Virus record (IMG/VR): IMGVR_UViG_3300032246_002701
Coordinates: 1,512-65,511 of that record
From: a virus
Taxonomy: Duplodnaviria; Caudoviricetes
Strand: one strand, 5' to 3'
DNA: 64,000 nucleotides
A program made the translations under genes and the position numbers. Shown here piece by piece: positions 41,159 through 63,783 of this stretch. Positions within the stretch are counted from its first letter, which is position 1. Each line of letters begins with the position of its first letter. The notes under the pieces were generated by a model. The model did not search any database. It saw only the letters and a program-made list of their open reading frames with translations, and was not told where the DNA came from.

Positions 41159-41166
41159 ATAACTAT

Positions 41167-45047: not shown

Positions 45048-45752
45048 TTACAATTTTATTTTTGCCAGTCCAAGGAATTCAAATATACGTAGGTATATCC
45101 AGCCAATGTCAAATTCCCACCATTTATGGCTAAGTTTAGCACTGGCCGGATCGGCATGATGATTATTGTGTAACTCTTCTCCTCCGATTATTATACCCCA
45201 GGGAATTATATTAGTAGACCGATCATCGGTATTGGTGTTCCTATATCCCCACCAGTGTCCTAACCCGTTAATTACTCCGGCCGCCCAAAAAGGAATCCAA
45301 ATCATTTGAACTGACCAAACTAAAATGCCCCACCATCCAAAAAGAACAAGATCCAAGATCAACATTAAGGCAATGCCTAGGTGTGGATATGGGGTATAAA
45401 CGTTTCTTTCTATCCAATCATCAGGAGTTCCCTTTCCAAAATTCATGATCATCTTGGAGTTTTTTCCTGCTAGATGATAATATCGAACACCTTTGAGAAG
45501 AATATTCCAAATACCATACACATGAGGGCTATGGGGATCTCCGGAAATGTCAGTATCTTTATGGTGCTTACGATGTATAGCCACCCATTGTTTAGTGATC
45601 ATTCCTGTGGTTAACCATAACCATGCTCTCATAAAATGACTCAAAATAGGATGGAATTCAACCCCTCTATGAGCCTGGCTTCTATGGAGATAGAGTGTAA
45701 CTGAGATAATAGTGATGTGTGTCATCACCAGTGTTGATAGAATTGTTAGCAT
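45048..45752 (-). CDS. Delta-9 fatty acid desaturase (DesA-like)
   Basis: His boxes LHRSQAH, HRKHH, HNNHH; DPHSP; EFDIGW. Confidence 0.92.
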   Translation of the reverse strand: MLTILSTLVMTHITIISVTLYLHRSQAHRGVEFHPILSHFMRAWLWLTTGMITKQWVAIHRKHHKDTDISGDPHSPHVYGIWNILLKGVRYYHLAGKNSKMIMNFGKGTPDDWIERNVYTPYPHLGIALMLILDLVLFGWWGILVWSVQMIWIPFWAAGVINGLGHWWGYRNTNTDDRSTNIIPWGIIIGGEELHNNHHADPASAKLSHKWWEFDIGWIYLRIFEFLGLAKIKL

Positions 45753-47068: not shown

Positions 47069-47692
47069 TTAAATTTCTACTTCTAAAATTTTATTAAAAA
47101 TTTTATCCCAAGTAACATCCCATGTGCCTTCTACTGCACAAAGATGTGCTCCGCTATTTAAGACCCCTTGTCGACCTATAGAACTATCCTCTATAATTAT
47201 AGTATTTGAAGGGATTGATTTTTGCGAAATCATGCATTTCCAATATACTTCCGGATATGGCTTAGGATATACTACGTCCTGACTAGTATACCAACTGTCA
47301 ACATATTCAATAATTCCGATATGTAACATCGCCAATCTTGCAGACTGACGAATGCTATTTGTAGCAACTGAAATATTATAATTTAAATTTTTTAATCTCT
47401 GACAAATATCAATTAACTTATCGTCTCTAGGCAACTGCTTAATATATTCGAGAGTTAACTTCTGTTTGTTTTTCCAAACTGTTTCAAATTGATCCCTCGG
47501 TAGCCCTTTATTTTTTTCTAATAATTCTAATTTCTTATCAGTATTAAGTTCTCGATAAATTTTAAAATTTTCCTCTTCACTTATAACGAATCTAGGATCT
47601 AAATTTTCTAATGCCGAGTTTAATGCACGATAGTGTAAAAGGTCACTGTTGATTAATACACCGTCTAGATCAAAAATAATAAGTTTGTTCAT
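47069..47692 (-). CDS. HAD-family phosphatase
   Basis: IFDLDGVL, ATNS, KPYPE, IEDS..G. Confidence 0.9.
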   Translation of the reverse strand: MNKLIIFDLDGVLINSDLLHYRALNSALENLDPRFVISEEENFKIYRELNTDKKLELLEKNKGLPRDQFETVWKNKQKLTLEYIKQLPRDDKLIDICQRLKNLNYNISVATNSIRQSARLAMLHIGIIEYVDSWYTSQDVVYPKPYPEVYWKCMISQKSIPSNTIIIEDSSIGRQGVLNSGAHLCAVEGTWDVTWDKIFNKILEVEI

Positions 47693-48652: not shown

Positions 48653-50324
48653 CTATTAATTTTCCAATAATCCCAATACTAGTAGTCATGGGTTCTATAT
48701 AATTTATTGTTTCAACTGGCGAAGTCTCGAACCCGTGCTTTGATAAAAGATTTGTTAATCCAGTTTCTGTAAAAAGATTTATGTGCTCATAAAAATTATA
48801 TTCACCATCAAAATGTTTAGAAAATTCTTTAGGAACTTCTACATAAAGATACCCGTCGGGTTTTAAAAACTTTTTAATATTCTGCATCGAATTGTTAATG
48901 TCACTAACATGTTCTAATACATGAGTGCAAATAACCAAATCAACTTTTTGATCTTTGATCGGTTCAACATCTATTTCTCTTTCTCTTTCTTCAACTTCGT
49001 AGACATACTTTTTGCAATTTTGAAATGCATTTGGAATCATTAGTCCCGTATCTCCACCAAAATCTAATACACTGGTGATTGATTTAATATCAAGATATCG
49101 GCCGATAATCTGTTCTCGATTGTTACGACATTGGTTGACATTTTCTTCTCCATGATACCATTGAGAAAAATTTATAATTCCAGGACCTTCGGATTGAGCA
49201 CGACTTTCAAGATATTCTCCATCCATATAATCCTTATAGTAATCTGCTTCAGATTTTAAACTAAATCGATAACTAAATCCAGCATAATCACAATCTCGAC
49301 AATGATTAATAAATCCTTGTGGTTTTGGAGTATGAGGATTTAATCTGAGGAAACGATTTAGTGTCCATCGATCCATTGTTGCTCTGTGTTTGTTGAGATT
49401 TTTGCTGCCACATACTGAACAGGAATCAATATTAGTTATTAATTCTTTGTATATAAATTTTTGATATTTTTCTAAATTTTCTAGAATATAGGAAGGATGA
49501 GTTTCAGAAGTAGGATCAACAATCTTATGTGGATAATCTCTAAACATTCTTTCAAGTGCTTCGTACACAGTCATATGATCGTATTTTAGATTATCTCCAA
49601 AATATCTATCTCGGGAGTGTGCCCAGCTCTTTTGTTTAGTAAGTACCTTTTCTCCATCTGTGTCATCGAGGAATGTAAAATGCCACCCTCCGTTTTTAAT
49701 AAACGGATGCGTTGCCATATTTTGATCTCTTAATGTAGTAGGGAGAACTTTTTTAAAATTACCAAACTCTGTAACTATGCCTGCTACATGCTCGGACCAA
49801 TGTTTATGTAAAATATTGAATTTATAAACAAATAAATTGCAATGGAATGAGATTACCGGTCGAAGGCCATTTTTATTATATGACTTGTCCGCAAATATAG
49901 TTAGTGCCTCTTCAAAGGCAGATTTTTTAATTATCTCATCAAGGCATGAAATATAAACGATATCGTCATCCTTGGCTCCATCATCAAGCATTACTTTATA
50001 AAGATAGTTAGCCTGGAAATGATCTCTTATCCAATCATCTGTTTCCATGTAAGGTCCTCGATCCTTGACACATTCATAATCAAGAAGAAGTTCTCCGTAC
50101 TTGTCTATTTCATCTTGAAAATTATCAAATTTAACATAGATCAATTTTTCAGAGTATGGTTTGAATCTTTCATGATCAAAATTAAAGGGTTTCGGATCCC
50201 CAGTGTGTGTCTCACCTGCTTCGATGACAATAAACTTATCAACAAAATTCCAGTGCTGGTTTAATCTGATTTCGAACAGATCATTTTCATTTAAAAACAT
50301 ACAGCAATCATAAACCATAATCAT
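48639..50324 (-). CDS. GT17-like glycosyltransferase fused to a class I SAM methyltransferase
   Basis: YDCCMFLNE.D...IRL, THTG.PK, GGWHF; C-terminal CxxC, LDFGGDTG, HVLEH, YVEVP, EHIN.F. Confidence 0.8.
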   Translation of the reverse strand: MIMVYDCCMFLNENDLFEIRLNQHWNFVDKFIVIEAGETHTGDPKPFNFDHERFKPYSEKLIYVKFDNFQDEIDKYGELLLDYECVKDRGPYMETDDWIRDHFQANYLYKVMLDDGAKDDDIVYISCLDEIIKKSAFEEALTIFADKSYNKNGLRPVISFHCNLFVYKFNILHKHWSEHVAGIVTEFGNFKKVLPTTLRDQNMATHPFIKNGGWHFTFLDDTDGEKVLTKQKSWAHSRDRYFGDNLKYDHMTVYEALERMFRDYPHKIVDPTSETHPSYILENLEKYQKFIYKELITNIDSCSVCGSKNLNKHRATMDRWTLNRFLRLNPHTPKPQGFINHCRDCDYAGFSYRFSLKSEADYYKDYMDGEYLESRAQSEGPGIINFSQWYHGEENVNQCRNNREQIIGRYLDIKSITSVLDFGGDTGLMIPNAFQNCKKYVYEVEEREREIDVEPIKDQKVDLVICTHVLEHVSDINNSMQNIKKFLKPDGYLYVEVPKEFSKHFDGEYNFYEHINLFTETGLTNLLSKHGFETSPVETINYIEPMTTSIGIIGKLIDGDK

Positions 50325-51123
50325 CTCTTTTCTTAAAATATTTTTTAAAACTTTCTTCCAATCCTAGCAAATTAATCCCTAACGATTTTAAATTATCAGG
50401 ATTTCCGTTGTAATTTTTTGAACTCTCTGAGAGTATAAAAATTCTTTTGTTAATATTATTTGTATTACAAAAAAGTCGAGCTGCATCGCTTATCTTGTAT
50501 TTTTCTTCATAAGAACAATTACAATCTTTTATTTTCCAATCATTTTCTATGCAGTTCTCAACGACTGTTGATAAATCTTGTATGCTAAAATAATCAAAGT
50601 ATCTATCATTATCTATTTTTAGTTCTTGAGTAGATGAAATAATTCTAGGAAATAGTCTTGTTGATTGCTCTCCGAGGCCGAAACAATTAAAAATACGCAG
50701 AGTATAAAAATTATTTTTTTTATAGCATAGTCTGCTTTTTATGTTTTGACCAAATCCATAACTATCTTTGGGTAGTCTATCAAAAATTAAATCTTCGGAT
50801 GCGTTATTAATGTCAGTCTCTCTATCAAATTCTGCACCGGATCCTGTATTAATGAACTTACCAAAATAATCGGAATTATCGTAAAAGTTCATAAAGATCC
50901 CTAAATTATTTCTAACATCATGTAACGAATTATTATCAGTCATCACCGCTGCACAATTTAATATAACATCAAATTTATGAACTTTTAAAAAATCTTTAAC
51001 TTTATAGGGATCGAGCAAGTCTAATACATCACGAGTAATCGGAGTAATTTGATACTTAGAATCAAAATATTGAGAAAGAGAAGATCCGACAAAACCTCGT
51101 GATCCTAATACAGCTACTTTCAT
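50308..51123 (-). CDS. NAD-dependent epimerase/reductase
   Basis: GSRGFVG, GSGAEF, LRIFNCFG. Confidence 0.85.
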   Translation of the reverse strand: MKVAVLGSRGFVGSSLSQYFDSKYQITPITRDVLDLLDPYKVKDFLKVHKFDVILNCAAVMTDNNSLHDVRNNLGIFMNFYDNSDYFGKFINTGSGAEFDRETDINNASEDLIFDRLPKDSYGFGQNIKSRLCYKKNNFYTLRIFNCFGLGEQSTRLFPRIISSTQELKIDNDRYFDYFSIQDLSTVVENCIENDWKIKDCNCSYEEKYKISDAARLFCNTNNINKRIFILSESSKNYNGNPDNLKSLGINLLGLEESFKKYFKKRDDYGL

Positions 51124-52895
51124 ATCTTAACAATCATTTCTCTATCTAGTTCATCCTGGCTTAAGAACGGACTCATATCATGCAAACCTCCTTGCTTCCC
51201 GTTAGGTTTCATTGCTTGAGCAGGTTGAACATCCAATGTGTCTTGACTCATAAACTCAACAATTACAGAAGTATTAGAATGAATTAGGTTACCCATTTGA
51301 GAGTCTAATTCGTTATTGCTAGAAATCTTAATATAAGGGATTTCGAATGCGGCCGCTACCTTAGAAATGTCTGCAAAATAAATTCCTGTGCCGGCACTAA
51401 CTCCCCATTGCCTTCCACTAAACATTCTATTTTGGGTTTGTTTAATACTCATGTATCCGTCGTTGTTAATTACAAAAATTTTAACAGGAATATTGTGCTG
51501 CTTGATAACTGCAAGTTCTTGCATATTGGTATAAAAACTACCCTCGCCAATGACCAGTACAATGTTTAGATCTGGATCAGCGAAATGAACCCCTACACTT
51601 GCCGGAATAGCATACCCCATATCTCCCTGGGCGGCCTGGGCCATGTACCTAGTATTCTTTTTAAATTTGCCGTTGGTAGAAAGAATATAGCACGGTTGTC
51701 CGGCATCGACGATAAAACAATCTTTTTCAGACATATTACGATTAATGCTTTCGACTATTTCATAAAGGTTTAATCCTCCCTCATCAGATCGATGAATGCT
51801 GGGATTATAAATGGGCCAAATATTTTTCCAATGTAATGCTTTTTCTGACCATTCCTTAATATCATATTCAGATCGATTTTCTAATGCTGTCTTGAGAAAC
51901 TCACTGACATCACAATTAATTGCCTGATCTACCTTAAAGATATCTTTTTTCAATTCACTAGGATCAATGTCTATCATGATCTTGGTACTTGCAGGACTAA
52001 AAGTTGTTGCGTCATATCCAATATGAGTAACATTCATAGAACAACCAAGGATGACTAAACAATCAGAATTCTGCATGGCAAAATTTGCAGATCGATTACC
52101 TTTAATTCCCATCATGCCAATATTTTGAGGATGTTCGTATTCGATATTATCTCGAGTTAAAAAGTTTGTGACAAATGGAATTTTATAGAACTCTACAAAT
52201 TCTCTAAATTCTTTACGACAATCAGCAATCGTAATTCCGTTGCCGGCAACAATAACAGGACGTTTAGAACTAAAGATCGTTTTCAGAGCAGACAGTATTT
52301 CATCTTTATGATCAATTAATTTAGTTTCTTCAACTAAAAATTCTCTATATCCTTCCGGAATTTGTGCGGCCTGTAAATTACCCGGAACATCAAACCAAAC
52401 AGGACCAGGTCGACCACTAGTAGCAATATGAATTGCTTTTTCTAATTCATAAGGAACATCTTCAGCACGTTCAATCATAACGGCATATTTTGTCATGCCC
52501 GATACAGCACCGACATTGTCAAAATCTTGAATTCCATATTTTCTTAAATTAAGTCTACGTTCTTTATTGATCAATTTGGCCATGTTAAATGTCTGTGTAT
52601 TTCCACTAAGAAACAATACAGGAACACTTTCTTGGTAGGCATTAAGACAACTGGTCATTACATTAGTAACTCCGCAGCCTGCAGTGACATTGCACACTCC
52701 TAGCATTCTATTGGTTCGAGCTGACCCAGTTGCAGCATGACCGGCACCTTGCTCATGATGAAAAGCAACGAACTCTATATCAGGATGACTAATGAAACCA
52801 TCGTTAAGTCCTGCAGTACTTCCCCCTACTAATCCGTAAACTTTTTTTATGCCTAATTGATTTAATCTATTAGCGATATAATCACAAACTCTCAC
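51120..52895 (-). CDS. Thiamine-diphosphate-dependent enzyme (acetolactate synthase / YerE-like)
   Basis: GTG start; HHEQGAG, GRPGPVW.D.P, MGYAIPA, GEGS...N ThDP motif, NNDGY. Confidence 0.9.
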   Translation of the reverse strand: MRVCDYIANRLNQLGIKKVYGLVGGSTAGLNDGFISHPDIEFVAFHHEQGAGHAATGSARTNRMLGVCNVTAGCGVTNVMTSCLNAYQESVPVLFLSGNTQTFNMAKLINKERRLNLRKYGIQDFDNVGAVSGMTKYAVMIERAEDVPYELEKAIHIATSGRPGPVWFDVPGNLQAAQIPEGYREFLVEETKLIDHKDEILSALKTIFSSKRPVIVAGNGITIADCRKEFREFVEFYKIPFVTNFLTRDNIEYEHPQNIGMMGIKGNRSANFAMQNSDCLVILGCSMNVTHIGYDATTFSPASTKIMIDIDPSELKKDIFKVDQAINCDVSEFLKTALENRSEYDIKEWSEKALHWKNIWPIYNPSIHRSDEGGLNLYEIVESINRNMSEKDCFIVDAGQPCYILSTNGKFKKNTRYMAQAAQGDMGYAIPASVGVHFADPDLNIVLVIGEGSFYTNMQELAVIKQHNIPVKIFVINNDGYMSIKQTQNRMFSGRQWGVSAGTGIYFADISKVAAAFEIPYIKISSNNELDSQMGNLIHSNTSVIVEFMSQDTLDVQPAQAMKPNGKQGGLHDMSPFLSQDELDREMIVKI

Positions 52896-52998
52896 AAATA
52901 CCCTCTTATAGTTATAGTCTTATTATACAGGAATGACTTTTGAATTACAAATATTTATGTGCTATTATAATGACAGTAAATAATTCAAAGGACCTCTC

Positions 52999-53703
52999 AT
53001 GGAAAAACGAGTTTTAATAACAGGAGCAACTAGGGGAATCGGCGAATCGATTGCTCGAAAATTTAAAGAAGAAAATTGGTTCGTCATAGGCACAGGTATG
53101 CATCCTCGAGATAAGCCCAGTTACCTTGATGAGTATTTTTTCTGCGATCTTAACGATAGAAACCACCTAGAACTACTAATCAGCAGAATCAAAGATCTAG
53201 AAATTGACACGTTGGTAAACAATGCTGGAATTAATATCATTAATAACTTTTTAGAAATAAATCCTGAAGATTTTGAAAAGGTGCATTCTGTAAATGTTTT
53301 TGCTCCGTTTCGATTAAGCCAGGCACTACTTCCCCACATGGTAAAAGCACAGTGGGGACGCATCGTTAACATTAGTTCAGTCTGGGGAAAAATTAGCAAA
53401 CAAGGGCGTGCCAGTTATTCTACAAGTAAATTTGGTATCGACGGATTGACAGTGTCAATGGCAAACGAGTTTGCTAGTCAAGGTATTTTGTGTAATTGTG
53501 TAGCGCCTGGATTTATTGATACAGAAATGACATGGACTAATTTAGGAACTGCAGGAGTTGAGAAAATGTTAGAAAATGTTCCAATTAAAAGATTGGCAAA
53601 AGTTGACGAGGTTGCTAATTTAGTTTATATGCTAGGTAGTGATAAAAACACTTATATTTCAGGACAGAACATTGCTATAGATGGAGGGTTTACTCGTGCA
53701 TAA
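52999..53703 (+). CDS. Short-chain dehydrogenase/reductase
   Basis: TGATRGIG, NNAG, YSTSK, PGFIDT, DGG. Confidence 0.92.
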   Translation: MEKRVLITGATRGIGESIARKFKEENWFVIGTGMHPRDKPSYLDEYFFCDLNDRNHLELLISRIKDLEIDTLVNNAGINIINNFLEINPEDFEKVHSVNVFAPFRLSQALLPHMVKAQWGRIVNISSVWGKISKQGRASYSTSKFGIDGLTVSMANEFASQGILCNCVAPGFIDTEMTWTNLGTAGVEKMLENVPIKRLAKVDEVANLVYMLGSDKNTYISGQNIAIDGGFTRA

Positions 53704-54739
53704 TTTTAGCATTCAATCTTATTCCGGACCGTATCAGGTAGAGTTTAATAATTCTTTGATAAACAACAAAGAATTGACTAACTTAGGAAGTCATTTCATT
53801 ATTGATCGAAATATTTTTTCATATCTTGGAGGAAACTTCTTACAACAAATAGAAAAAAAGAATTTCGTTCTAATTGATGCAACAGAAGAAACAAAAAGTT
53901 ATAGAGGAATTGAACCGGTTTTAAGTCAACTTTTAGAGCAGCAATTAAAAAAAGATAGTGTACTAGTAGCAATCGGCGGAGGAATTACACAGGATATTAC
54001 TTGTTTTATTGCAAATACCTTTATGAGAGGCATAAAATGGGTGTTTGTACCTACTACACTGCTATCACAGGCAGATAGTTGTATCGGATCTAAAAGTAGT
54101 ATCAATTTTGGCAAAACTAAAAATATACTTGGATCATTTACTCCTCCCCAGAAAGTCATTATATCAGATCAATTCTTAACTACCCTCGAAGAAAAGGATA
54201 TTAAGAGCGGTATTGGGGAAATTATCAAATTATATCTAGTTAACGGACAACTAGTAACCAGCGACGAAATTAGAAATGATTTAACCAAACATTTATATGC
54301 TACTTTACAAATCAAAAAGAAATACATTGAGCAAGATGAATTCGATGTTGGTGTTCGAAATATTTTGAATTACGGGCATTGCTTCGGCCATGCAATTGAA
54401 AGTTCTACAGATTTTGGAATTCCCCACGGTATTGCTGTTACTATGGGAATGGACATTGCAAATAAATTTTCACAGAACGAAGGCCTGATAACAGAAAAAG
54501 AATACCTAATGATGCACACGGTTCTTTTTAGTAACTATACAGGCTATAACACTGTGCCTGTAAAAATAGATCCTATTTTCACAGCATTATCAAAAGATAA
54601 AAAGAATACAGGCAGTAAGATTAATCTTATTCTGCCTGTAAATGGAACTCTAGAAAAACGTGGATTTGAAAATAATAGTGTGCTAGTAAAATCGATTACT
54701 AACACACTGCGTCAACTGCCTATCAATTTTGTTGATTGA
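53696..54739 (+). CDS. 3-dehydroquinate synthase-like sugar-phosphate cyclase
   Basis: [40 protein letters not shown]; probable GTG start. Confidence 0.88.
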
Positions 54740-55529
54740 GTTTATTCCATCGAGTCTCGAGCATATCAATACGCTTATCATCTTCTGTAAAGATAGAACC
54801 GTAGTAATCACGCTTGTTCTTAAGCCAAAGCAGTTCAAATTGGACTGCTTTTAACAATGCCTTTTCTACAGTGGGCAAATTAATAGCACTACCGTCAAAA
54901 ATCACTTTACGTGTTTCATAACGGCTAAGATGTACTGATTGTACTTCTCGAACTGCATGAATAGCATCAATCGAAATTCCCCCGCCCATTACTAACTCTA
55001 GTCCTGCTTCTTTGCATGCGGTTGCAGTTTCGACCACCATTTGTGTTACATCTTGATTATTGATGTCTTCTCGACCGTTCCGACCCATACTCATAACAAA
55101 ATCAACTCGGCCGAATACCAATCCATCAAGTCCGCCGGGCATCGTGGCTTTTTCGATCATTCCCTTGAGATTATCAAAGCCAGTAATAGTTTCGAGATTG
55201 GTCAAGAATTTTGTTTCTTTTCTTTCTTCTTCTGAATAAATTTTATTTTTGGCATCGATGAATTTCCATAATGCATACGGGGTTTCAACCATTGGTGCAA
55301 TAATGTAATCAACGCCAATTTGTTTAACTTCCATAAGGTCACGCATTGCTTCGCAACCGCCGATTTTAACTGCTAATTTTAAATCTGCTTTTCGAGCAAT
55401 TTCAACCAACCGCAAAAGTTCGTCGGTTCGCGTACCTTCTGCTTCGAACTCGGCCTTTACTGCATCGATTCCAAATTCTTGCTTGCCCTGTTTAAGGATA
55501 TCAAGCATCTGTCTTTCTTTTAAGTTCAT
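54723..55529 (-). CDS. HpcH/HpaI aldolase / citrate lyase family protein
   Basis: [29 protein letters not shown]. Confidence 0.8.
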
Positions 55530-55543
55530 AAGTTCTCCTTTGT

Positions 55544-56860
55544 TTATATGAACAAACTCATAAATCCATCTACTTTTTCTCCAATATAACTAATTTGTTC
55601 CGGAGTAATTACCGGACTAGTTCCATGGAAATAGGTGTTAGTCATTACCTGAGTGGCTACGGGAAAATTATTCTTAGCATCCTGCGGATTCATAATATGA
55701 CTATATGCAGGTTGCAGCATAATATTACCAGCAAAATAAGGCCTAGTCTGAATTAAGTTTTCTTCTAGATAGTCTACAATTTCACTGCGAGTAAATGGTG
55801 CATCTTTTCTAATAGTTAGCGGAAAAGCAAACCAACTAGGATCACTCTTGGCCTGCGCTCGTGGCAGGTGAAAAAACTCTTCATACTTGCTGTAGATATC
55901 AAATAACAACTGATAGTTTCTACGACGCAGAGCATGAATGGCGGGCAGTTTTTCTAGTTGATGTAAGCCCATAGCACTTTGAATTTCGATGGGTTTAAGG
56001 TTAAACCCGATCTCATCATAGACATACTTGTGATCAAATATTTCTCCGGGCATGGTGGGAATCCATTCCTGGAATCGTTTGCCGCAGGTTCCGCATTTAA
56101 GTTTATTGGCTTCGGGTCCCACGCAATAACAACCTCGACCCCATTCTCTAAAACTACGAAGAATGATTTCTTGTTCGTAAGTATTACAGGCTACGAACCC
56201 CCCTTCTCCCATAGTCATATGATGTGCAGGGTAGAAACTGCAAGAAGCCATTTCTCCGAAACTGCCCAGCGGTTTCCCATCATAGGTACTACCTAGCGCA
56301 TCACAGCAATCCTCGAGCAGAACAATGTTGTACTTGTTAACCAACTCCATAACCTGATCCATATTAGGCGGATTACCTAGAACATGGGCAAATGTCATAA
56401 CTCGAATATCATGCTCTTTGATTAGATCCTCTGCTTTGGTAAGATCTAGATTAAGTGTATCTAATTCAATATCCAAGAACACCGGTTCAAAGCCCAATTG
56501 AAGAGTAGGATTCAGTGTAGTAGGAAATCCTGCAATAGGCATCAATACTTTAGTTCCTTTCGGAAAATGATGTCCTCGCTTACTGGTTAAACTAGCCAGC
56601 ATGAGTAGATTACTAGAACTACCTGAATTAGTTAAGATGCCATTTTCCTTACCGAATTGTTTAGGAAAGGCTCTTTCGAATTTAAGGCTCTTATCTCCCA
56701 TAACTAGCCATCCGCCTAGCAGGCTTTCGGCAGCAGATACAAATTCATCGGAATTAAAATACGGGCCGGCATAGTTTACAAAGTCTTTTCCAGCCACCCA
56801 GGTTTTAGACGATTGCTTTTCTTCAATATATTGTTTAATTTGATCTAATATTTCTTTCAC
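55544..56860 (-). CDS. rfbH: CDP-4-keto-6-deoxyglucose 3-dehydratase E1 (RfbH/DdhC)
   Basis: [37 protein letters not shown] (His replaces the PLP Lys), WGRGCYC..C..C Fe-S motif, DHKY. Confidence 0.92.
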
Positions 56861-56863
56861 GAT

Positions 56864-57577
56864 TTATTCCATAATATGTGGTAAAAATGCATTATACAAT
56901 TGTATTCGAACATCTATAGATGTAGCAGGCCAATGTATTAACCAATCGCCCGGATGCCAGTTCCCATCTACCCCAAGTGTATCTCTTTGATCGGTGTAAT
57001 TATATAATTTATAATAAAAACTATTCATGAACCTCTGAGGCATCACTTTAACTACAGATTGATATTTTTCACAAACCTGTAATAGCGGAGATTTAACCCA
57101 ATCCGGTGATGCTGTTACAGGAAGACCTAGAGACAGTGCAATAGCACGTTGTTCAGTATCCCAATGTTTTAAGCACTCTTGTTCTATAGATAGTACATCA
57201 TCTAAAAATTCTAGAGCCTCCGGACTGTTTCTTATCAAAATGCTATCAGCATTAATGCCATTAACATCAACACAAATTATAACATGATAATTGTTATCTA
57301 TGCGATCTTCAATTCGAACTGCAAAGTTAGTAATCATGGTATCGGTGCCAGTCCACCATATCCAATCATACTCCGGATGTTTGGCTAATACTTCTTTGGC
57401 TATATACAATTTTTCAAACCCGGTCATTAGACCATTGGCTTGCTTACTGGTCCAATTGTTTGTTTTTGCATGAGTTGCATATCCATGTCTTGCTGCATAC
57501 TTCAATTTGTTTTGATTCCAGGTGAGATCTGCTAATCTCTGGTAACCTTCATCATGATGAGTTATTAGTGCGTACAT
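56864..57577 (-). CDS. GT34 (GMA12/MNN10)-like glycosyltransferase
   Basis: YAARHGY, WIWW..TD..I.N, N....LIRN, EQ, GD.LIHW. Confidence 0.75.
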   Translation of the reverse strand: MYALITHHDEGYQRLADLTWNQNKLKYAARHGYATHAKTNNWTSKQANGLMTGFEKLYIAKEVLAKHPEYDWIWWTGTDTMITNFAVRIEDRIDNNYHVIICVDVNGINADSILIRNSPEALEFLDDVLSIEQECLKHWDTEQRAIALSLGLPVTASPDWVKSPLLQVCEKYQSVVKVMPQRFMNSFYYKLYNYTDQRDTLGVDGNWHPGDWLIHWPATSIDVRIQLYNAFLPHIME

Positions 57578-59299: not shown

Positions 59300-60418
59300 A
59301 TGGAAATAATTCAACGTAACCAATGTTTAATCACCGGCAAAAGAGATATAGAACATATCTACACATTTAACCATTTTCCAATTTACATGGGTTGCACAGA
59401 TAACCTAGACCCTAGTTCAGATTTGTTTGCTGATATGAAATGGGGATTTTCTCAAAGCTCAGGTAACGTACAACTAATGGAATTAATAAAACCAGATGTC
59501 TTGTATAGCCAACATCATAATTCCGGAACCATCGGTGAAATATGGCGACAACATCATAGAAAGTTTTACGAATTTATTAGTAAGCACGGGTGTTCAAGTG
59601 CTTTAGAAATTGGTGGTGCTACCGGTTCATTAGCCAATTTATTTTTAGAAAATCAAAAAAATATTAGCTGGACTGTTATAGAACCTTCTTTAAAATTATC
59701 AATCAAAGATCCAAGAATTACCTGCATACAGGGATTTTTTGAAGATTATAATTTTAACTCTACATTCGACGCCGTAGTACATTCGCATCTTTTTGAGCAT
59801 GTATATGATCCTATTAAATTCCTACTAAAAGTAAGAAGTTTATTAAAAACAGGAGACAGTCAGTTTATCGCATTACCAAACATGCAGCATTGGCTAGCAG
59901 AAGGATATAACAGCACGCTGACTTTTGAGCATACATATTATGTAGACGAAAAAGTATTAGAAGCATTGTTAGCAAATGCAGGATTCGTTATAGCAGATAA
60001 AGTTGTGGAACCACATTCCATATTTGTTAGATGTATCAAAGTGGACGAGACAACTTTATCTGCTGCTCCTAGACTTGATTATGTTAAAGATGAATTTATA
60101 AAATATACAAATAGAATGAAACAAGATGTTGCTACCATCAACACCAATATTAAAAATAATAATATTTTTTTGTTTGGAGCACACGTATTCTCTCAAACAT
60201 TGTTAAATCTCGGCATTAATGAAACTCAAGTTTTAAGTATCCTAGATAACGATCCTAAAAAACAAAACAAGAGATTGTATGGTACAAACCTTATTGTAAA
60301 ATCTCCTAACTGTCTAGAAGGTCTACCCAGTCCGATTATTGTGGTTAGGTCAGGCATTTACACAGACGAAATTAAACAGGGAATCCTGAAAATTAATCCT
60401 ACTGCAATTTTTTATTAA
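59300..60418 (+). CDS. SAM-dependent (sugar C-)methyltransferase
   Basis: LEIGGATG, SHLFEH.YDP, FEHTYY, FGA, ILDND..KQ; TATAAATA at 59258. Confidence 0.85.
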   Translation: MEIIQRNQCLITGKRDIEHIYTFNHFPIYMGCTDNLDPSSDLFADMKWGFSQSSGNVQLMELIKPDVLYSQHHNSGTIGEIWRQHHRKFYEFISKHGCSSALEIGGATGSLANLFLENQKNISWTVIEPSLKLSIKDPRITCIQGFFEDYNFNSTFDAVVHSHLFEHVYDPIKFLLKVRSLLKTGDSQFIALPNMQHWLAEGYNSTLTFEHTYYVDEKVLEALLANAGFVIADKVVEPHSIFVRCIKVDETTLSAAPRLDYVKDEFIKYTNRMKQDVATINTNIKNNNIFLFGAHVFSQTLLNLGINETQVLSILDNDPKKQNKRLYGTNLIVKSPNCLEGLPSPIIVVRSGIYTDEIKQGILKINPTAIFY

Positions 60419-61140
60419 TGACTAAAATAAACATAATTATTCCAATGGCTGGGAAAGGCAGCAGATTTCCTAAAGACCAATATTTGCCTAAACCATTAAT
60501 TGATGTCAACGGCAAACCTATGATTGTGCGAGCAATAGAAAGTCTCGATATAAAAGATGCACAATGGCATTTTATTATTCGCAAAGATAATTTTACTGAT
60601 GCTGTTAAAGATATTATATCTAAAGTTGTTGTTAATCCTAGATTTAGCGAAGTTGAAAAAACAACCGAAGGGCCTGCTTGTTCTGCGTTATTGTTTAAAA
60701 AAGATATCAATAACGATCAAGAATTAGTCATTGCTAATTGTGATCAAATTATGGAATGGAACAGTAACTTGTTTTTTCATAATGTTCGATTATACGACGG
60801 TGCGGTAGTAACTTATTATAGTGATACCGATAAAAATAGTTACGTAAAATTAGATCGAAAAGGTAATGCTGTACGATTTGCAGAAAAAGAAGTTATTAGT
60901 AACATTAGCCTTAATGGTGTACATTATTGGAAACAAGGCCGATATTTTGTCGACAGTGCAGAAAAAATGATCGCCGCTGATGATAGAGCTCTAAACGGCG
61001 AGTTCTACATTGCACCAACATATAATTATATGATCCATTCAGGTAAGGTAGTAGGAATACACCACATTCCTAATGAACAACATCACGCTGTCGGTGTTCC
61101 TATAGATTTAGAAAGATTTTTAAAATATGAAAACACATAA
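60418..61140 (+). CDS. Sugar nucleotidyltransferase
   Basis: IPMAGKGSRF...PKPLI, TEGPA, NCDQ, AEK..IS, NGEFYIAPTYN. Confidence 0.88.
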   Translation: MTKINIIIPMAGKGSRFPKDQYLPKPLIDVNGKPMIVRAIESLDIKDAQWHFIIRKDNFTDAVKDIISKVVVNPRFSEVEKTTEGPACSALLFKKDINNDQELVIANCDQIMEWNSNLFFHNVRLYDGAVVTYYSDTDKNSYVKLDRKGNAVRFAEKEVISNISLNGVHYWKQGRYFVDSAEKMIAADDRALNGEFYIAPTYNYMIHSGKVVGIHHIPNEQHHAVGVPIDLERFLKYENT

Positions 61141-61450
61141 TTTAAATGAGTTTTGGCGAGGTTGGTTTATCGGGAACTTTGAACCATCATTGTTGAAAAC
61201 AGACCAATTTGAAGTCGGATTGTTAGCGCACCATAAGGGAGAAGCATGGCCTAAGCATTATCATGCTAGGCACACTGAATATAATCTTCTTGTTAAAGGT
61301 CAAATGAATATTTGCGGACAAATAATTAATTCTGGTGAGATTTTTGTTTTAGAACCAAATGAAATTGCTGATCCCGTATTCTTAGAAGATTGTCTTGTTC
61401 TCTGCATCAAACAGCCTAGTGTACCAGGAGATAAACATGAAGTTCTTTAG
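61127..61450 (+). CDS. Cupin-domain protein
   Basis: GWFIGNFEP, HYH...E...G, PSVPGDK. Confidence 0.8.
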   Translation: MKTHNLNEFWRGWFIGNFEPSLLKTDQFEVGLLAHHKGEAWPKHYHARHTEYNLLVKGQMNICGQIINSGEIFVLEPNEIADPVFLEDCLVLCIKQPSVPGDKHEVL

Positions 61451-62630
61451 AAATAGGGACGAGATTAACAGCAACAAATATTACATTGCTACCTATAAAA
61501 TGGCAAGTTCGGAAAATCTTCGAGAAGCCGCATGGAACTTGGCCATTGGACAAAGTGTAGGAAACCCTAGTGTTCGCAACGAATGGGAGACCGACGAGTT
61601 ATTCGAAAATCATAGTTGCCTTGTGGTTGGAGACGAAGATTTCTTAAAGCATCAAACAGAAGGTATTGTAGAAATTGCTTTTCCTGTGGTTAACACAGAT
61701 TGGGAAACTGATGGTATCAGTCATCTGCTCTGCCAATTAATGGGCGGACACGTCGACATTGATATTATAACCAAATGCCGATTAGTTAAATTAGAACTAC
61801 CCGAGTCAGTGACTAAACATTTCTTAGGTCCGAAATTTGGTCTATCAGGGTTTAGAGCATTAACAGGACAATACGGCAAACCATTATTTGGCAGTATTGT
61901 AAAACCTAAGATTGGTATTACCCCAGAAGTATTGTTAGAAATGGTTAAGCAGATGGTTGACGGCGGAGTTGACTTCATCAAGGAAGATGAGATCATGGTC
62001 AATCCTGCTTGTGCTCCATTGGAACGCAGAGTAGACATAATTTCTAACTACCTGGCCAAACAAAGTCGTAAGATTGTATTCTGTCATACCATTAATTGCG
62101 ATCCGCATGTGTTAGTAGATCGTGTTAAACGTGTTCATGAACTAGGAGGTACAGGTGTTCACATTAACGTATTCAGCGGATTTGGATCTTATAACAGTAT
62201 CCGTAAACTAGATCTACCATTGTATCTACATTATCAGAGCAGTGGCGCAAAGGTTACTACAGATAAGAATCACAGATTTAGTATTGCTTGGCCGGTAATG
62301 TGCCAATTGGCTACAATGATGGGAGCTGATACAATTCAAACAGGCATGGTCGGCGGTTACAGCAATGACGACCCGGAGGAAATCAAACAGTGTATTGACA
62401 TACTTACGGCTGGAAATACGGTTCCTGCTCTTAGCTGCGGAATGCATCCCGGATTAGTTGATCGTGTTACCGAAATTGCCGGTATTGATTATCTAGCAAA
62501 TGCAGGCGGTGCCGTGCATGGTCATCCAGGTGGAACCATCTCTGGAGCTCGTGCTATGCGACAAGCAGTCGACAAAACATATGGGCCGGAATATGATCAG
62601 GCAATTGAGAAATGGGGATTAATAAAATGA
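61437..62630 (+). CDS. RuBisCO-like protein (form IV)
   Basis: GQSVG, GPKFG..G.R, VKPKIG, GGVDFIKEDE, PALSCG, AGGAVHGHPGG...GA.A.RQA. Confidence 0.9.
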   Translation: MKFFRNRDEINSNKYYIATYKMASSENLREAAWNLAIGQSVGNPSVRNEWETDELFENHSCLVVGDEDFLKHQTEGIVEIAFPVVNTDWETDGISHLLCQLMGGHVDIDIITKCRLVKLELPESVTKHFLGPKFGLSGFRALTGQYGKPLFGSIVKPKIGITPEVLLEMVKQMVDGGVDFIKEDEIMVNPACAPLERRVDIISNYLAKQSRKIVFCHTINCDPHVLVDRVKRVHELGGTGVHINVFSGFGSYNSIRKLDLPLYLHYQSSGAKVTTDKNHRFSIAWPVMCQLATMMGADTIQTGMVGGYSNDDPEEIKQCIDILTAGNTVPALSCGMHPGLVDRVTEIAGIDYLANAGGAVHGHPGGTISGARAMRQAVDKTYGPEYDQAIEKWGLIK

Positions 62631-63328
62631 AAATTGCAATTATAATGACCGGGCATGTGAAAGGATGGAAAAGAACTTACGAAGGACTACAAAATCATGT
62701 ATTAAGACATCACGATGTCGATTTTTATTTAAGCACATGGGACGTAGATAATATCGGAAGAAATGGAAACCCCAACCACTATCCTGCAGTTGACATCGAA
62801 CCTGTTGTACAATTATATAAACCTAAAAAATTCAGAGTGGAAAATCATAATAGATATTACCAAAATAGATTCCCTCCGATATCATTTGAAGAAAGAGAAG
62901 ATGACGTTTTTAAAACTAATGCTCACGCAATAGAACACGGTAGATATTGGGTCGAAAGAATGCGCGACATGTGGTACATTATTAAGCAAGGATACCTATT
63001 AATCGACCACCCGGAAGAATACGATCTAATTATGAGATTAAGATTTGATGTAGTTCTCGATGCTATTACTTTTCAACAAACGGATGTTCTGATTTTTTTA
63101 CATGTTGATTTAAATAAAAAAAGTGTTTATGATTTACTTGCTTATGGGACACCTGATTTAATGAAGATATACTCTCATGTCTTTGATCATATAGAATCTA
63201 TGTATAAAAATAACAATATAAATATCGCACATTCAGATGAAATGTTAGGGGAATATCTAATAACATACAATAATATCATTCCCAACGGTGATTCATCAAT
63301 TCGTTTTCATGGAGCCTGGATAAATTGA
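62627..63328 (+). CDS. Hypothetical glycan-locus protein (possible glycosyltransferase)
   Basis: MKIAIIMTG, D.Y.STW, YKPKK, YDLIMRLRFD, D..AYG. Confidence 0.6.
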   Translation: MKIAIIMTGHVKGWKRTYEGLQNHVLRHHDVDFYLSTWDVDNIGRNGNPNHYPAVDIEPVVQLYKPKKFRVENHNRYYQNRFPPISFEEREDDVFKTNAHAIEHGRYWVERMRDMWYIIKQGYLLIDHPEEYDLIMRLRFDVVLDAITFQQTDVLIFLHVDLNKKSVYDLLAYGTPDLMKIYSHVFDHIESMYKNNNINIAHSDEMLGEYLITYNNIIPNGDSSIRFHGAWIN

Positions 63329-63783
63329 AATTAATTGCACATCGAGGACTACTTAAAGGTCCGGATAAAACTCTAGAAAATCACCCAGATCAAATACTCA
63401 AGGTAGTTGAATTAGGGTACGATTGTGAAGTAGATTTTTGGCTTGTAGATAGCAAATTTTATTTAGGGCATGATACCTATCAATATCAGATAGATGAATA
63501 CTTTTTGTCAAGATTGGGCAAGTTGTGGATACACGCTAAAAATTTAGATGCACTACATTGGTTATCGTCTTCTCAACAATCTTTGAATTATTTTTGGCAT
63601 CAAGAGGATGATTTCACATTAACTAGCCAAGGATATATTTGGACCTATCCGGGAAAATTGCTAACTGATCTTAGTATATCAGTTATGCCAGAATGGAATG
63701 ATCCAAATTTTAATAATTTAAATTTTAATTGTTTCGGAATATGCAGCGATTACATTTTAAAAATCAAACAATTACAAAAGTGA
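63325..63783 (+). CDS. PLC-like / glycerophosphodiester phosphodiesterase-fold protein
   Basis: IAHRG, EN, DCEVD, LGHD, WIHAKN, TLTS.GYIWTYPG, GICSD. Confidence 0.8.
   Translation: MKLIAHRGLLKGPDKTLENHPDQILKVVELGYDCEVDFWLVDSKFYLGHDTYQYQIDEYFLSRLGKLWIHAKNLDALHWLSSSQQSLNYFWHQEDDFTLTSQGYIWTYPGKLLTDLSISVMPEWNDPNFNNLNFNCFGICSDYILKIKQLQK

What the first reader, a model, noticed from the sequence alone, without database searches (positions are those of the whole stretch)
60418..63783. RuBisCO-like protein embedded in a phage sugar-nucleotide operon
Seen: overlapping nucleotidyltransferase, cupin, RLP, putative GT and PLC-like phosphodiesterase genes. The RLP keeps K175/K177 (VKPK), the carbamylated Lys and acidic Mg ligands (IKEDE rather than KDDE), and the GG..GHP phosphate loop. 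By eye it has Gln at the H294 and H327 positions (LHYQS, IQTG) and lacks the loop-6 Lys (VGGYS). Established: form IV RLPs do enolate chemistry without CO2 fixation, mostly in methionine salvage or sugar catabolism. Inference: a biosynthetic RLP acting as a ketose-phosphate isomerase/epimerase that supplies an unusual nucleotide sugar; it should not be read as a carbon-fixation gene.
Basis: partly seen in the sequence, partly recalled or inferred. Interest (0 to 1): 0.7.

Follow-up and report, generated by a model that had tools for sequence, protein, structure and literature searches.

The report
RuBisCO-like enzyme in a sugar-activation cassette
A large uncultured phage carries a non-carbon-fixing relative of RuBisCO that is almost always paired, and sometimes fused, with a sugar-activating enzyme inside surface-glycan gene clusters of phages, SAR11 bacteria, tiny archaea and other microbes, which points to an undescribed biosynthetic job for this enzyme family.

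Summary
Window 60418-63783 encodes five overlapping + strand genes: a nucleotidyltransferase (NT), a 107-aa cupin, a 398-aa RuBisCO-like protein (RLP), a GT-A glycosyltransferase (DUF7796) and a 152-aa reduced GDPD-like phosphodiesterase.

The RLP keeps K175, K177, K201, D203 and E204. It has Gln at H294 and Tyr at K334, so it is not a carboxylase.

Phage RLPs were already reported (Jaffe 2019), with function unknown. What I did not find in print:
- The RLP clade is separate from the one named MtnW sequence in the tree and is not phage-only. It occurs in Pelagibacter, Patescibacteria, DPANN archaea, Legionellaceae, Azospirillum and Nonomuraea.
- An NT lies near the RLP in 51/53 viral and 45/50 cellular loci, and is fused to it in 28 protein clusters.
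- Of the 50 cellular loci, 38 carry exactly one of a mini-GDPD, a full-length GDPD or LicD.
- In cyanophages the same NT family is fused to RibB or to a HAD domain instead.

Best reading (0.55): the RLP makes an unusual ketose or ketol phosphate by enolate chemistry, and the NT activates it for a surface glycan. The substrate is unknown. This is a new functional variant of a known family.

The parts
60418..61140 (+). Nucleotidyltransferase (240 aa), sugar-phosphate NT fold, 4evw-like family. This is the constant partner of the RLP.
   Evidence: PF00483 22.9 bits (cut-off 21.2) and NTP_transf_3. Family profile against PDB: 4evw at 2.4e-33 over the full length, then Man-1-P GTases and RmlA at about 1e-9 to 1e-7. 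Near the RLP in 51/53 viral loci and 45/50 cellular loci. Fused to the RLP in 28 protein clusters.
61127..61450 (+). Small single-domain cupin (107 aa) with an HxH...E metal motif. An accessory member of the cassette.
   Evidence: H44, H46 and E51 are invariant in 27 sequences. Cupin_7 in 22/27 and Cupin_2 in 10/27 members. PDB profile hits: quercetin 2,3-dioxygenase 5e-7, Cupin_2 proteins, a 113-aa mannose-6-P isomerase 1e-3, KdgF. Present in 39/53 viral and 16/50 cellular loci.
61434..62630 (+). RuBisCO-like protein (398 aa from the ATG; an alternative TTG start lies at 61395). It belongs to a distinct NT-associated RLP clade.
   Evidence: PF00016 8.6e-35. PDB 4nas 1e-38. All NCBIfam equivalogs score far below their cut-offs. 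Clade support 100 (SH-like) in the tree. Residue map.
62612..63328 (+). DUF7796-family protein (238 aa), predicted GT-A glycosyltransferase of GT6-like fold.
   Evidence: 6/26 family members hit PF25072. AlphaFold model pLDDT 83.2. Foldseek against PDB: alpha-1,3-galactosyltransferase, blood-group GTA/GTB and BoGT6a at E 1e-7 to 1e-5, probability 1.0, TM about 0.45-0.5. The family is in 23/53 viral loci, often as several paralogues.
63325..63783 (+). Reduced GDPD/PLC-like phosphodiesterase-fold protein (152 aa), here called 'mini-GDPD'.
   Evidence: Invariant H6, G8, E18, N19, E35, D37, H49 and D50. Profile against PDB: Pyrococcus GDPD 2e-4, N-terminal 52 residues only. Model pLDDT 94.5. The best fold matches are GDPDs, but weak (E 1e-2, TMq 0.33-0.55). 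Present in 36/53 viral and 23/50 cellular loci. A 53%-identical cyanophage homologue is annotated as a glycerophosphoryl diester phosphodiesterase.
59300..60418 (+). C-methyltransferase-like protein (372 aa), directly upstream of the NT gene and sharing one base with it. Membership in the cassette is tentative.
   Evidence: Methyltransf_23 5e-11 plus the C-methyltransferase C-terminal domain PF08484. Homologues at 44-49% identity lie upstream of the NT-RibB fusion in S-SKS1 and in 7 of the 11 related viral contigs examined. Seen in only a few RLP loci.
47069..47692 (-). HAD_2 hydrolase (207 aa). It is homologous to the HAD domain that is fused to this NT family in cyanomyoviruses. The link to the cassette is tentative.
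   Evidence: PF13419 1.1e-24. 47-50% identity to the HAD halves of the S-CAM9, DSL-LC03 and B23 HAD-NT proteins. Homologues lie directly upstream of the NT in L027-L029 and L047/L048.

Best explanation
The RLP is the 'supplier' enzyme of a small, mobile nucleotide-activation cassette that sits in surface-glycan gene clusters.

Step 1 (inferred). The RLP uses the retained Mg2+/carbamate machinery (K175, K177, K201, D203, E204) and the retained P1 phosphate site (S379, G381, G403). With these it enolises a common 2-keto sugar phosphate and releases an isomer: carbonyl-shifted, epimerised, or an enol/diketo form. It cannot add CO2, because E60, N123, H294 and K334 are replaced.

Step 2 (inferred, optional). 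Where the metal-binding cupin is present, it processes this product further.

Step 3 (supported by context, not by assay). The adjacent nucleotidyltransferase joins the product to a nucleotide.

Step 4 (inferred). The activated unit is installed on a glycan by one of two routes: by GT-A transferases of the DUF7796 family, or as a phosphodiester-linked unit by the GDPD-fold protein. In Legionellaceae LicD would take that second role.

In the phage the cassette is an auxiliary gene set. It decorates either the infected cell's envelope or the virion.
For: Shown:
- Gene order and overlaps in the window.
- An NT lies within 8 kb of the RLP in 51/53 viral loci, and in 29/30 loci with at least 5 kb on both sides.
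- An NT lies within 5 kb in 45/50 cellular loci and directly adjacent in 42/50. Four of the five misses are on contigs cut within 3 kb.
- The RLP-NT fusion recurs in 28 clusters of 523-672 aa at 90% identity, 27 of them 658-672 aa.
- There is one GDPD-RLP fusion, P0149, which is truncated.
- Mini-GDPD (23 loci), full-length GDPD PF03009 (11) and LicD (4) are mutually exclusive next to the cellular RLP-NT pairs. 38/50 loci have exactly one of them.
- Neighbours are glycan genes: GT2, NDP-sugar epimerases/dehydratases, DegT aminotransferases and methyltransferases in cells. In phages they are a Methyltransf_24/rhamnosyl O-methyltransferase-like gene (30/53 loci) and DUF7796 GT-A genes.
- The same NT family (26-39% identity) in cyanophages is fused to a genuine DHBP synthase (RibB, PF00926 5e-65) or to a HAD_2 domain. 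Mini-GDPD and DUF7796 neighbours are present there, but no RLP. The NT therefore takes different upstream 'suppliers'.
- Active-site pattern.
- Not MtnW or OiaX by the NCBIfam cut-offs or by the tree.
Against: - No assay exists, and no substrate can be named.
- The order of RLP and NT is not shown. The RLP could act on the nucleotide-linked sugar.
- The closest solved NT relatives are sugar-1-phosphate enzymes. An RLP product that carries a primary phosphate would be an unusual substrate for that fold, although LicC- and IPCT-type members do exist (recalled).
- No GDPD-fold enzyme is known to me as a biosynthetic phosphotransferase (recalled). Its role may be hydrolytic.
- The cupin and the GDPD are each absent from many loci.
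- One cellular locus with full flanks (L066) and one viral locus (L050) have no NT nearby.
- Some loci labelled 'cellular' are short MAG contigs that could be viral. Some IMG/VR contigs could be cellular.
Confidence: 0.55

Rival explanations
1. The RLP acts after the transferase. The NT first makes an ordinary NDP-sugar, and the RLP (with the cupin) then isomerises or epimerises the keto form of that NDP-sugar.
For: The NT's solved relatives are sugar-1-phosphate nucleotidyltransferases. Small cupins and C-methyltransferases commonly act on NDP-ketosugars (recalled), and a C-methyltransferase-like gene abuts the NT. Loop-6 Lys334 is replaced by Tyr, so the active site might stay more open.
Against: No 4,6-dehydratase or oxidoreductase is a constant member of the cassette, so there is no source of a keto-NDP-sugar. 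No member of the RuBisCO superfamily is known to me to bind a nucleotide-linked substrate (recalled). In cyanophages the NT is fused to RibB, whose product is a small phosphate ester and not an NDP-sugar.
Confidence: 0.15
2. A salvage or detoxification module for SAM by-products. The RLP, the cupin and a HAD enzyme work like MtnW/MtnX/MtnD, or like the Rhodospirillum RLP plus cupin of the MTA-isoprenoid shunt. They would act on 5-methylthio- or 5-deoxy-pentulose 1-phosphate. A hybrid version has the methylthio- or deoxy-sugar product then used as a glycan unit.
For: The best solved relatives include DK-MTP-1-P enolases (2e-36). The RLP-plus-cupin pairing has a published precedent (listing and abstracts: PMC5893883, PMC4958253). 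A HAD_2 gene accompanies the NT family. The islands hold many SAM-dependent methyltransferases.
Against: MtnW models score 170 and 141 bits against cut-offs of 409 and 513.6. The clade is separate from the sequence named as MtnW. No MtnA, MtnB, MtnK or MtnP-like neighbour was seen among the proteins I scanned. The cupin is missing in 14/53 viral and 34/50 cellular loci. A pure salvage role does not explain the constant NT or the GDPD/LicD.
Confidence: 0.15
3. A catabolic or phosphorus-scavenging module. The GDPD releases a phosphate ester from an environmental or host phosphodiester, and the RLP channels it into central metabolism.
For: GDPD enzymes are normally hydrolytic (recalled). The carriers include streamlined oligotrophs such as SAR11.
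Against: The constant partner is a nucleotidyltransferase, which is an anabolic activating enzyme. Neighbours are glycosyltransferases and sugar-modifying enzymes. In Legionellaceae LicD, a transferase, replaces the GDPD.
Confidence: 0.05
4. A true CO2-fixing RuBisCO that augments host carbon fixation.
For: Match to the RuBisCO large-chain catalytic domain. K175, K177, K201, D203 and E204 are kept.
Against: E60 is Gly, N123 is Gly and T65 is Asn. H294 is Gln in 116/116 and K334 is Tyr in 116/116 clade members. In the window R295, H298 and H327 are Ser, Ala and Gln. The form III model scores 174 bits against a cut-off of 497. No phosphoribulokinase was seen among the neighbours scanned.
Confidence: 0.01

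Closest known systems
Phage 'form IV-like' RLPs of Jaffe et al. 2019 (Mol Biol Evol 36:435, PMC6389311; passages read)
   Same: These are RuBisCO-like proteins on IMG/VR and groundwater phage contigs, some from phages larger than 200 kb. They are divergent from other RLPs and group with Beckwithbacteria sequences. My clade also holds a Beckwithbacteria sequence (L072, 47% identity), so this is very probably the same family.
   Different: In the passages I read, that paper left the function open and did not describe the gene neighbourhood. It proposed the family as a phage plus Beckwithbacteria group. Here the family also appears in SAR11, DPANN archaea, Verrucomicrobiota, Legionellaceae and other lineages, always with a nucleotidyltransferase. 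The paper's supplementary figures could not be seen and may show some gene context.
MtnW/YkrW 2,3-diketo-5-methylthiopentyl-1-phosphate enolase (methionine salvage)
   Same: Same fold. It is among the best solved relatives (2oej, 2e-36). The Mg2+/carbamate residues and K175 are kept. The substrate is a monophosphate. A HAD phosphatase and a cupin (MtnX, MtnD) follow it in the pathway (recalled).
   Different: About 30% identity or less. Scores are far below the equivalog cut-offs. It falls in a separate clade. K177 is kept here but is Val in the MtnW representative. H294 is Gln here and His in MtnW. The constant partner here is a nucleotidyltransferase, not salvage enzymes.
Rhodospirillum rubrum DeepYkr RLP (5-methylthioribulose-1-P 1,3-isomerase) with its cupin methylsulfurylase (MTA-isoprenoid shunt)
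   Same: An RLP working together with a small cupin. The shunt's product, 1-deoxyxylulose 5-phosphate, is the five-carbon homologue of the RibB product. RibB replaces the RLP beside this NT family in cyanophages. The chemistry of the shunt is recalled; only the listing and abstracts were seen.
   Different: No reference sequence was available to test relatedness. The shunt feeds isoprenoid and methionine metabolism and is not known to be linked to nucleotidyltransferases or glycan clusters.
LicC/LicD, TarI-type and IspD-type activation of phosphate esters as CDP-X, followed by phosphotransfer
   Same: A small NT next to a phosphotransferase. In four Legionellaceae loci a LicD-family gene (PF04991, 6e-44) lies beside the RLP-NT pair. 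The window's NT gives weak hits to IspD, KdsB and inositol-phosphate cytidylyltransferase models.
   Different: The NT's nucleotide specificity and substrate are unknown. Its closest solved relative is an uncharacterised Vibrio protein (4evw), followed by sugar-1-phosphate enzymes. In most loci a GDPD-fold protein stands where LicD would be expected.
NT-RibB fusion (SWZG_00042) of Synechococcus phage S-SKS1, and HAD-NT fusions of cyanomyoviruses
   Same: Same NT family (26-39% identity). The companions are similar: a C-methyltransferase homologue, DUF7796 and mini-GDPD. These too are phage glycan clusters.
   Different: The supplier enzyme is RibB or a HAD domain instead of RLP plus cupin. These fusions are themselves uncharacterised. 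A search for papers mentioning DHBP synthase together with cyanophage found none.

Membership tests
RuBisCO large-subunit superfamily | Match to the catalytic TIM-barrel domain (PF00016) above the gathering score | tested here: met
   120.9 bits against a cut-off of 30.1. 99 PDB sequences hit at E <= 1e-3.
RuBisCO large-subunit superfamily | N-terminal domain (PF02788) | tested here: inconclusive
   17.0 bits against a cut-off of 20.7 for the window's protein. Pairwise alignments to PDB RLPs do cover residues 16-140.
Carboxylating RuBisCO (forms I-III) | Activation and metal site: K201 (carbamate), D203, E204, plus K175 and K177 | tested here: met
   All five are conserved in 32/32 clade sequences.
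Carboxylating RuBisCO (forms I-III) | H294, loop-6 K334, and N-domain E60, T65 and N123 | tested here: not met
   Gln at H294 and Tyr at K334 in 116/116 members. E60 is Gly, T65 is Asn and N123 is Gly. The pairwise HMMER alignment would place a non-conserved His at H294.
Carboxylating RuBisCO (forms I-III) | Distal (P2) phosphate site: R295, H298, H327 | tested here: not met
   The window has Ser, Ala and Gln, a pattern shared by 41/116 members. Most other clade members have K/R, D and H.
Carboxylating RuBisCO (forms I-III) | NCBIfam equivalog scores (form III TIGR03326; form II NF010002) | tested here: not met
   174 bits against 497, and 93 bits against 489.
MtnW / YkrW DK-MTP-1-P enolase | Equivalog model score (NF007095, TIGR03332) | tested here: not met
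   170 bits against 409, and 141 bits against 513.6.
MtnW / YkrW DK-MTP-1-P enolase | Falls in the MtnW clade in a tree | tested here: not met
   In a FastTree of 175 rows the module-associated clade (87 rows) has support 100. P0199, which NCBI names DK-MTP-1-P enolase, lies in the other 82-row part. Only one named MtnW row was in the tree.
MtnW / YkrW DK-MTP-1-P enolase | Neighbouring methionine salvage genes (mtnK/A/B/X/D) | tested here: inconclusive
   None appeared among the about 60 neighbouring proteins scanned with Pfam. Many neighbours were not scanned. A cupin and a HAD gene are present, but they belong to other families.
OiaX/OiaT apiose-pathway RLPs | Equivalog model score NF042437 | tested here: not met
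   146 bits against 700. Plasmid OiaX genes are only 29-31% identical.
DeepYkr RLP (MTRu-1-P 1,3-isomerase) | Sequence clade membership and activity | not testable with these tools
   No labelled reference sequence or model was available. Only the analogy of the RLP-cupin pairing could be noted.
Phage 'IV-like' RLP group (Jaffe 2019) | On phage contigs, divergent from other RLPs, clustering with Beckwithbacteria | tested here: met
   55 IMG/VR loci. Beckwithbacteria locus L072 lies inside the clade.
GDPD / PLC-like phosphodiesterase (p152) | Catalytic His-Arg, Glu-Asn, Glu-x-Asp and His motifs, and a (beta/alpha)8 barrel | tested here: inconclusive
   The motifs are invariant and the profile hits a GDPD at 2e-4, but over 52 residues only. 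The window's protein has no Pfam hit. At 152 aa it is too short for a full barrel. Fold matches to GDPDs are weak (E 1e-2).
Cupin superfamily (61127-61450) | Motif 1, G-x5-HxH-x3,4-E-x6-G | tested here: met
   Invariant in 27 sequences. Cupin_7 hits in 22/27 members, though the window's own score (18.1) is below the cut-off of 27. No conserved His of motif 2 was seen.
GT-A glycosyltransferase (p238, DUF7796) | GT-A Rossmann-like fold | tested here: met
   Foldseek E 1e-7, probability 1.0, to GT6 enzymes. The model has pLDDT 83. A DxD-type motif was not examined beyond the near-invariant R144 and D146.
Sugar-phosphate nucleotidyltransferase (60418-61140) | PF00483 above cut-off and the G-x-G-x-R signature | tested here: met
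   22.9 bits against 21.2. G12, G14 and R16 are invariant. 4evw hits at 2.4e-33.

The most novel reading that the evidence does not exclude
RLP (with the cupin) is a non-homologous stand-in for RibB. It would make a small 1-deoxy-ketose phosphate, of the same kind as 3,4-dihydroxy-2-butanone-4-P or 1-deoxyxylulose-5-P, from a pentulose phosphate. The NT would activate this as an NDP- or CDP-ketol. A GDPD-fold enzyme (LicD in Legionellaceae) would then act as a phosphotransferase and hang it on surface glycans through a phosphodiester. That would be three things at once: a new kind of glycan decoration, the first biosynthetic role for the RuBisCO superfamily, and a new transferase activity for the GDPD fold. 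It would be shared by SAR11, DPANN archaea, CPR bacteria and their large phages.
Probability: 0.1. Interest if true: 0.85.

Novelty: new variant of a known kind. Interest (0 to 1): 0.68.

Why it matters
Every RLP function known to me is catabolic or salvage: methionine salvage, the MTA-isoprenoid shunt and apiose degradation (recalled). Several RLP clades still have no assigned function. This clade has a very clear genomic signature: it is constantly paired with, or fused to, a nucleotidyltransferase, and it carries an interchangeable GDPD or LicD partner inside glycan clusters. That signature makes the function directly testable with a few recombinant proteins.

The carriers include some of the most abundant cells on Earth (SAR11), the metabolically minimal DPANN and CPR lineages, and large uncultured phages. 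The product is therefore probably a widespread but unrecognised component of cell surfaces. It would bear on phage-host recognition.

It also corrects a recurring annotation error. JGI names these genes 'ribulose-bisphosphate carboxylase large chain', so they risk being counted as viral carbon-fixation genes.

Tried and rejected
- tblastn of the RLP against 50,697 phage records found nothing. No cultured phage in that collection carries it, so no annotated reference genome could be used.
- blastn of the whole region against phages matched only the 3' end of p152.
- The plasmid collection gave only OiaX-type RLPs at 29-31% identity, which were not informative.
- Foldseek of the p152 model gave no match at E <= 1e-3. 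I did not run the wider VIA search.
- Naming clusters for tree labels gave few names: 1 MtnW name, 1 further 'enolase' name from JGI, and the rest generic. The known RLP subclades (Photo, NonPhoto, DeepYkr, AMC) could therefore not be placed in my tree.
- I considered a complex prediction for RLP with the NT or the cupin and did not run it, because the report does not rest on physical binding.
- I considered that the RLP-NT fusion might be a gene-calling artefact. I rejected this after finding 28 independent clusters. The GDPD-RLP fusion rests on a single truncated protein (P0149) and stays weak.
- Literature searches for RuBisCO-like together with nucleotidyltransferase or glycerophosphodiester returned only irrelevant papers. 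The search combining RLP with capsule and O-antigen terms was too broad to be informative.
Because of that, the Pelagibacter (L061), Azospirillum (L097) and Nonomuraea (L098) neighbourhoods were characterised only by tblastn with the window's genes.

Full report
**What is in the window**

Positions 60418-63783 hold five tightly packed + strand genes.
- Nucleotidyltransferase (NT): 60418-61140.
- A 107-aa cupin: 61127-61450.
- RuBisCO-like protein (RLP): 61434-62630. This is 398 aa from the ATG, which matches the 396-397 aa of its relatives. A TTG further upstream is less likely to be the start.
- A 238-aa protein (p238): 62612-63328.
- A 152-aa protein (p152): 63325-63783.

Successive genes overlap by 14, 17, 19 and 4 nt. 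A C-methyltransferase-like gene (59300-60418) ends on the first base of the NT gene.

The window is the 3' part of a 65,511-bp IMG/VR virus record with an estimated completeness of 18%. The cassette therefore lies 217 bp from the contig end, and further members may be missing.

**Identity of each gene**

- RLP. It matches the RuBisCO large-chain catalytic domain (PF00016, 8.6e-35). Among solved structures it matches RLPs best: 4nas at 1e-38 and the Geobacillus DK-MTP-1-P enolase 2oej at 2e-36. It is far below every NCBIfam equivalog cut-off: form III 174 against 497, MtnW 170 against 409 and 141 against 514, OiaX 146 against 700.
- NT. It passes PF00483 narrowly. A profile of its family hits the uncharacterised Vibrio 'nucleoside-diphosphate-sugar pyrophosphorylase' 4evw over its full length (2.4e-33), then mannose-1-P guanylyltransferases and RmlA.
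- Cupin. It carries an invariant G-x5-HxH-x4-E-x6-G motif and is recognised as Cupin_7 or Cupin_2.
- p238. It belongs to DUF7796. Its model matches GT6-type GT-A glycosyltransferases.
- p152. It has the GDPD catalytic motifs and a profile match to a GDPD over its first 52 residues. The model is confident (pLDDT 94.5), but its best fold matches to GDPDs are weak. I read it as a reduced GDPD-like barrel.

**Active site of the RLP**

I aligned 60 sequences: 32 clade members, 26 other RLP/RuBisCO representatives and two form III-like enzymes. The results:
- K175, K177, K201, D203, E204, S379, G381 and G403 are kept in 32/32 clade members.
- E60 is Gly, T65 is Asn and N123 is Gly.

Across 116 clade members:
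- The H294 column is Gln in all 116.
- The K334 column is Tyr in all 116.
- The window's viral subgroup (41/116) has Ser295, Ala298 and Gln327.
- Most other members have Lys/Arg295, Asp298 and His327.

Pairwise HMMER alignments to PDB RLPs put the neighbouring His at H294. It has not been checked on a structure.

The pattern is an intact enolisation machinery and proximal phosphate site, with a rebuilt distal pocket and no CO2-addition residues. This rules out carboxylation. It fits a ketose or diketone monophosphate substrate.

**Relatives and phylogeny**

The family is large.
- More than 120 clusters at 80% identity or above.
- 55 IMG/VR loci at 56-92% identity, on contigs up to 327 kb.
- None of 50,697 GenBank phage records has it.
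- It is not phage-only. 50 loci in species-representative genomes carry it. They include a complete Pelagibacter chromosome and many SAR11 single-cell genomes, Patescibacteria including Beckwithbacteria, Woese-, Pace- and Nanoarchaeota, Verrucomicrobiota, Elusimicrobiota, Azospirillum oleiclasticum, Nonomuraea rosea, three Legionella species, Tatlockia and a Francisellaceae bacterium.

In a FastTree of 175 rows, all 21 viral and 45 cellular sequences, plus 21 metagenomic representatives, form one clade (SH-like support 100). This clade is apart from 82 other RLP/RuBisCO representatives, among them the one that NCBI names DK-MTP-1-P enolase. The window's viral group (18 rows, support 100) is sister to a group rich in Pelagibacter. 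A gene elsewhere in the window is most similar to Pelagibacter phage Mosig and to jumbo phages. The host is not established.

**Neighbourhood**

Viral loci, n = 53 including the window, ORFs within 8 kb of the RLP:
- NT 51
- cupin 39
- mini-GDPD 36
- a Methyltransf_24/rhamnosyl O-methyltransferase-like gene 30 (absent from the window)
- DUF7796 23

Among the 30 viral loci with at least 5 kb on both sides, the counts are 29, 25, 23, 21 and 17. A close viral subgroup (RLP 77-80% identical) has the order GDPD-NT-RLP with no room for a cupin.

Cellular loci, n = 50:
- NT within 5 kb in 45, directly adjacent in 42. Four of the five misses are on contigs cut within 3 kb of the RLP.
- Cupin in 16.
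- Mini-GDPD in 23.
- A full-length GDPD (PF03009, 5e-23) in 11.
- LicD (PF04991, 6e-44) in the 4 Legionellaceae loci.
- These last three never occur together, and 38/50 loci have exactly one of them.
- Other recurrent neighbours are NDP-sugar epimerases/dehydratases, GT2 glycosyltransferases, methyltransferases and DegT aminotransferases.

**Fusions and swaps**

- RLP fused to a C-terminal NT occurs in 28 protein clusters of 523-672 aa, 27 of them 658-672 aa, from three data sources.
- One truncated protein joins a mini-GDPD to the RLP (P0149).
- The same NT family in cultured cyanophages (26-39% identity) is fused to a HAD_2 domain in S-CAM9, DSL-LC03 and B23.
- In S-SKS1 it is fused to a bona fide 3,4-dihydroxy-2-butanone-4-phosphate synthase (RibB, PF00926, 5e-65).
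- The NT-RibB fusion was found in 8 further viral contigs in full. Two more contigs carry truncated matches, and one has the two parts about 6 kb apart. These contigs have no RLP, cupin or GDPD. A homologue of the window's C-methyltransferase lies upstream in 7 of them.
- The HAD-NT cyanophage clusters do carry mini-GDPD and DUF7796 genes.
- The window itself has a free-standing HAD_2 gene at 47069-47692, 47-50% identical to those HAD domains.

**Interpretation**

The constant unit is RLP plus NT. The cupin is accessory. A GDPD-fold protein or LicD usually completes the set.

The NT accepts different upstream partners (RLP, RibB, HAD). The simplest reading is that each partner supplies the phosphate ester that the NT activates.
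- RibB starts from the 2,3-enediol of ribulose-5-P and gives a 1-deoxy-ketol phosphate (recalled).
- The Rhodospirillum RLP with its cupin gives 1-deoxyxylulose-5-P (recalled; listing and abstracts).
- RuBisCO's own enediol intermediate eliminates phosphate to give a 1-deoxy-pentodiulose phosphate (recalled).

A related small keto-phosphate is therefore an attractive, but unproven, product for this RLP.

LicD enzymes transfer phospho-X from CDP-X (recalled). LicD and the GDPD-fold proteins are mutually exclusive here. This suggests, but does not show, that the GDPD-fold proteins handle the same phosphodiester step.

Which parts are shown and which are inferred:
- Shown: the gene identities at family or fold level, the residue pattern, the clade, the linkage statistics and the fusions.
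- Inferred: every catalytic step and its order.

**Comparison with what is known**

Jaffe et al. 2019 reported about 80 phage 'form IV-like' RLPs from IMG/VR and groundwater data, grouping with Beckwithbacteria, and stated that the function was unclear (passages read). The presence of an RLP on a phage is therefore not new.

I found no paper in the held library that links an RLP to a nucleotidyltransferase, a GDPD or glycan synthesis. I found none on the cyanophage NT-RibB fusion either.

The Global Ocean Sampling paper noted novel RuBisCO-homologue groups in marine data (passages read). Some of these may be this SAR11/phage clade. I did not test that.

**Verdict**

The feature is real. It is a new functional variant of a known protein family, with an unusually clear route to experimental assignment.

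Noticed in passing
window 47696-56860 (- strand) and 52999-54739 (+ strand): The upstream part of the island looks like a pathway for a branched 3,6-dideoxyhexose. It holds an NDP-hexose 4,6-dehydratase-like gene (47696-48652), an RfbH/E1-type 3-dehydrase (55544-56860; NF011936, 437 bits against a cut-off of 423), a ThDP enzyme (51120-52895), SDRs (50308-51123 and 52999-53703), a GT17 + methyltransferase fusion (48639-50324) and a GT34 (56864-57577). The resemblance to yersiniose synthesis is from memory.
   Followed up: partly
window 53681-54739 (+) and 54723-55529 (-): A 3-dehydroquinate-synthase-like sugar-phosphate cyclase (PF01761 + PF24621) lies next to an HpcH/HpaI aldolase-like gene in a phage glycan island. 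This hints at a carbocyclic or higher-carbon sugar.
   Followed up: no
window 41125-43218 (+): A phage-encoded protein of 697 aa with a CHASE2 sensor domain and an adenylate/guanylate cyclase domain. It matches phrog_35576 over its full length.
   Followed up: no
window 45048-45752 (-): A fatty-acid desaturase family gene (PF00487, 7e-13) on the phage contig.
   Followed up: no
window 12256-13911 (+): A 551-aa protein with a pectate-lyase-like beta-helix domain (PF12708, 5e-12). It could be a tail-fibre depolymerase.
   Followed up: no
P0191 (protein): A 583-aa protein with an N-terminal TIR domain fused to a different RLP, outside the clade studied here. A TIR-RLP fusion might be defence-related.
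   Followed up: no
P0154, P0169 (proteins): Fusions of an IF-2B family domain (the ribose-1,5-bisphosphate isomerase type) to form III-like RuBisCOs that have all catalytic residues. These would be two steps of the AMP pathway in one polypeptide.
   Followed up: no
L110 6001-7428 (Synechococcus phage S-SKS1) and L112-L121: A nucleotidyltransferase-RibB fusion conserved in S-SKS1-like cyanophages. It lies near genes annotated as phosphoheptose isomerase and transaldolase. Its function is unknown, and I found no paper on it.
   Followed up: partly
proteins P0323-P0400: The same NT family also occurs as proteins of about 500 aa whose Pfam hits are all nucleotidyltransferase families (PF00483, PF01128, PF12804). 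In Zymomonas and Azospirillum NCBI names them 'glycosyltransferase family 2 protein'.
   Followed up: no
L075-L082 (SAR11) and L083-L095 (DPANN): In these loci two different NT paralogues accompany the RLP. In SAR11 they flank it. In DPANN one is adjacent and a second lies 2-5 kb away on the other strand.
   Followed up: no
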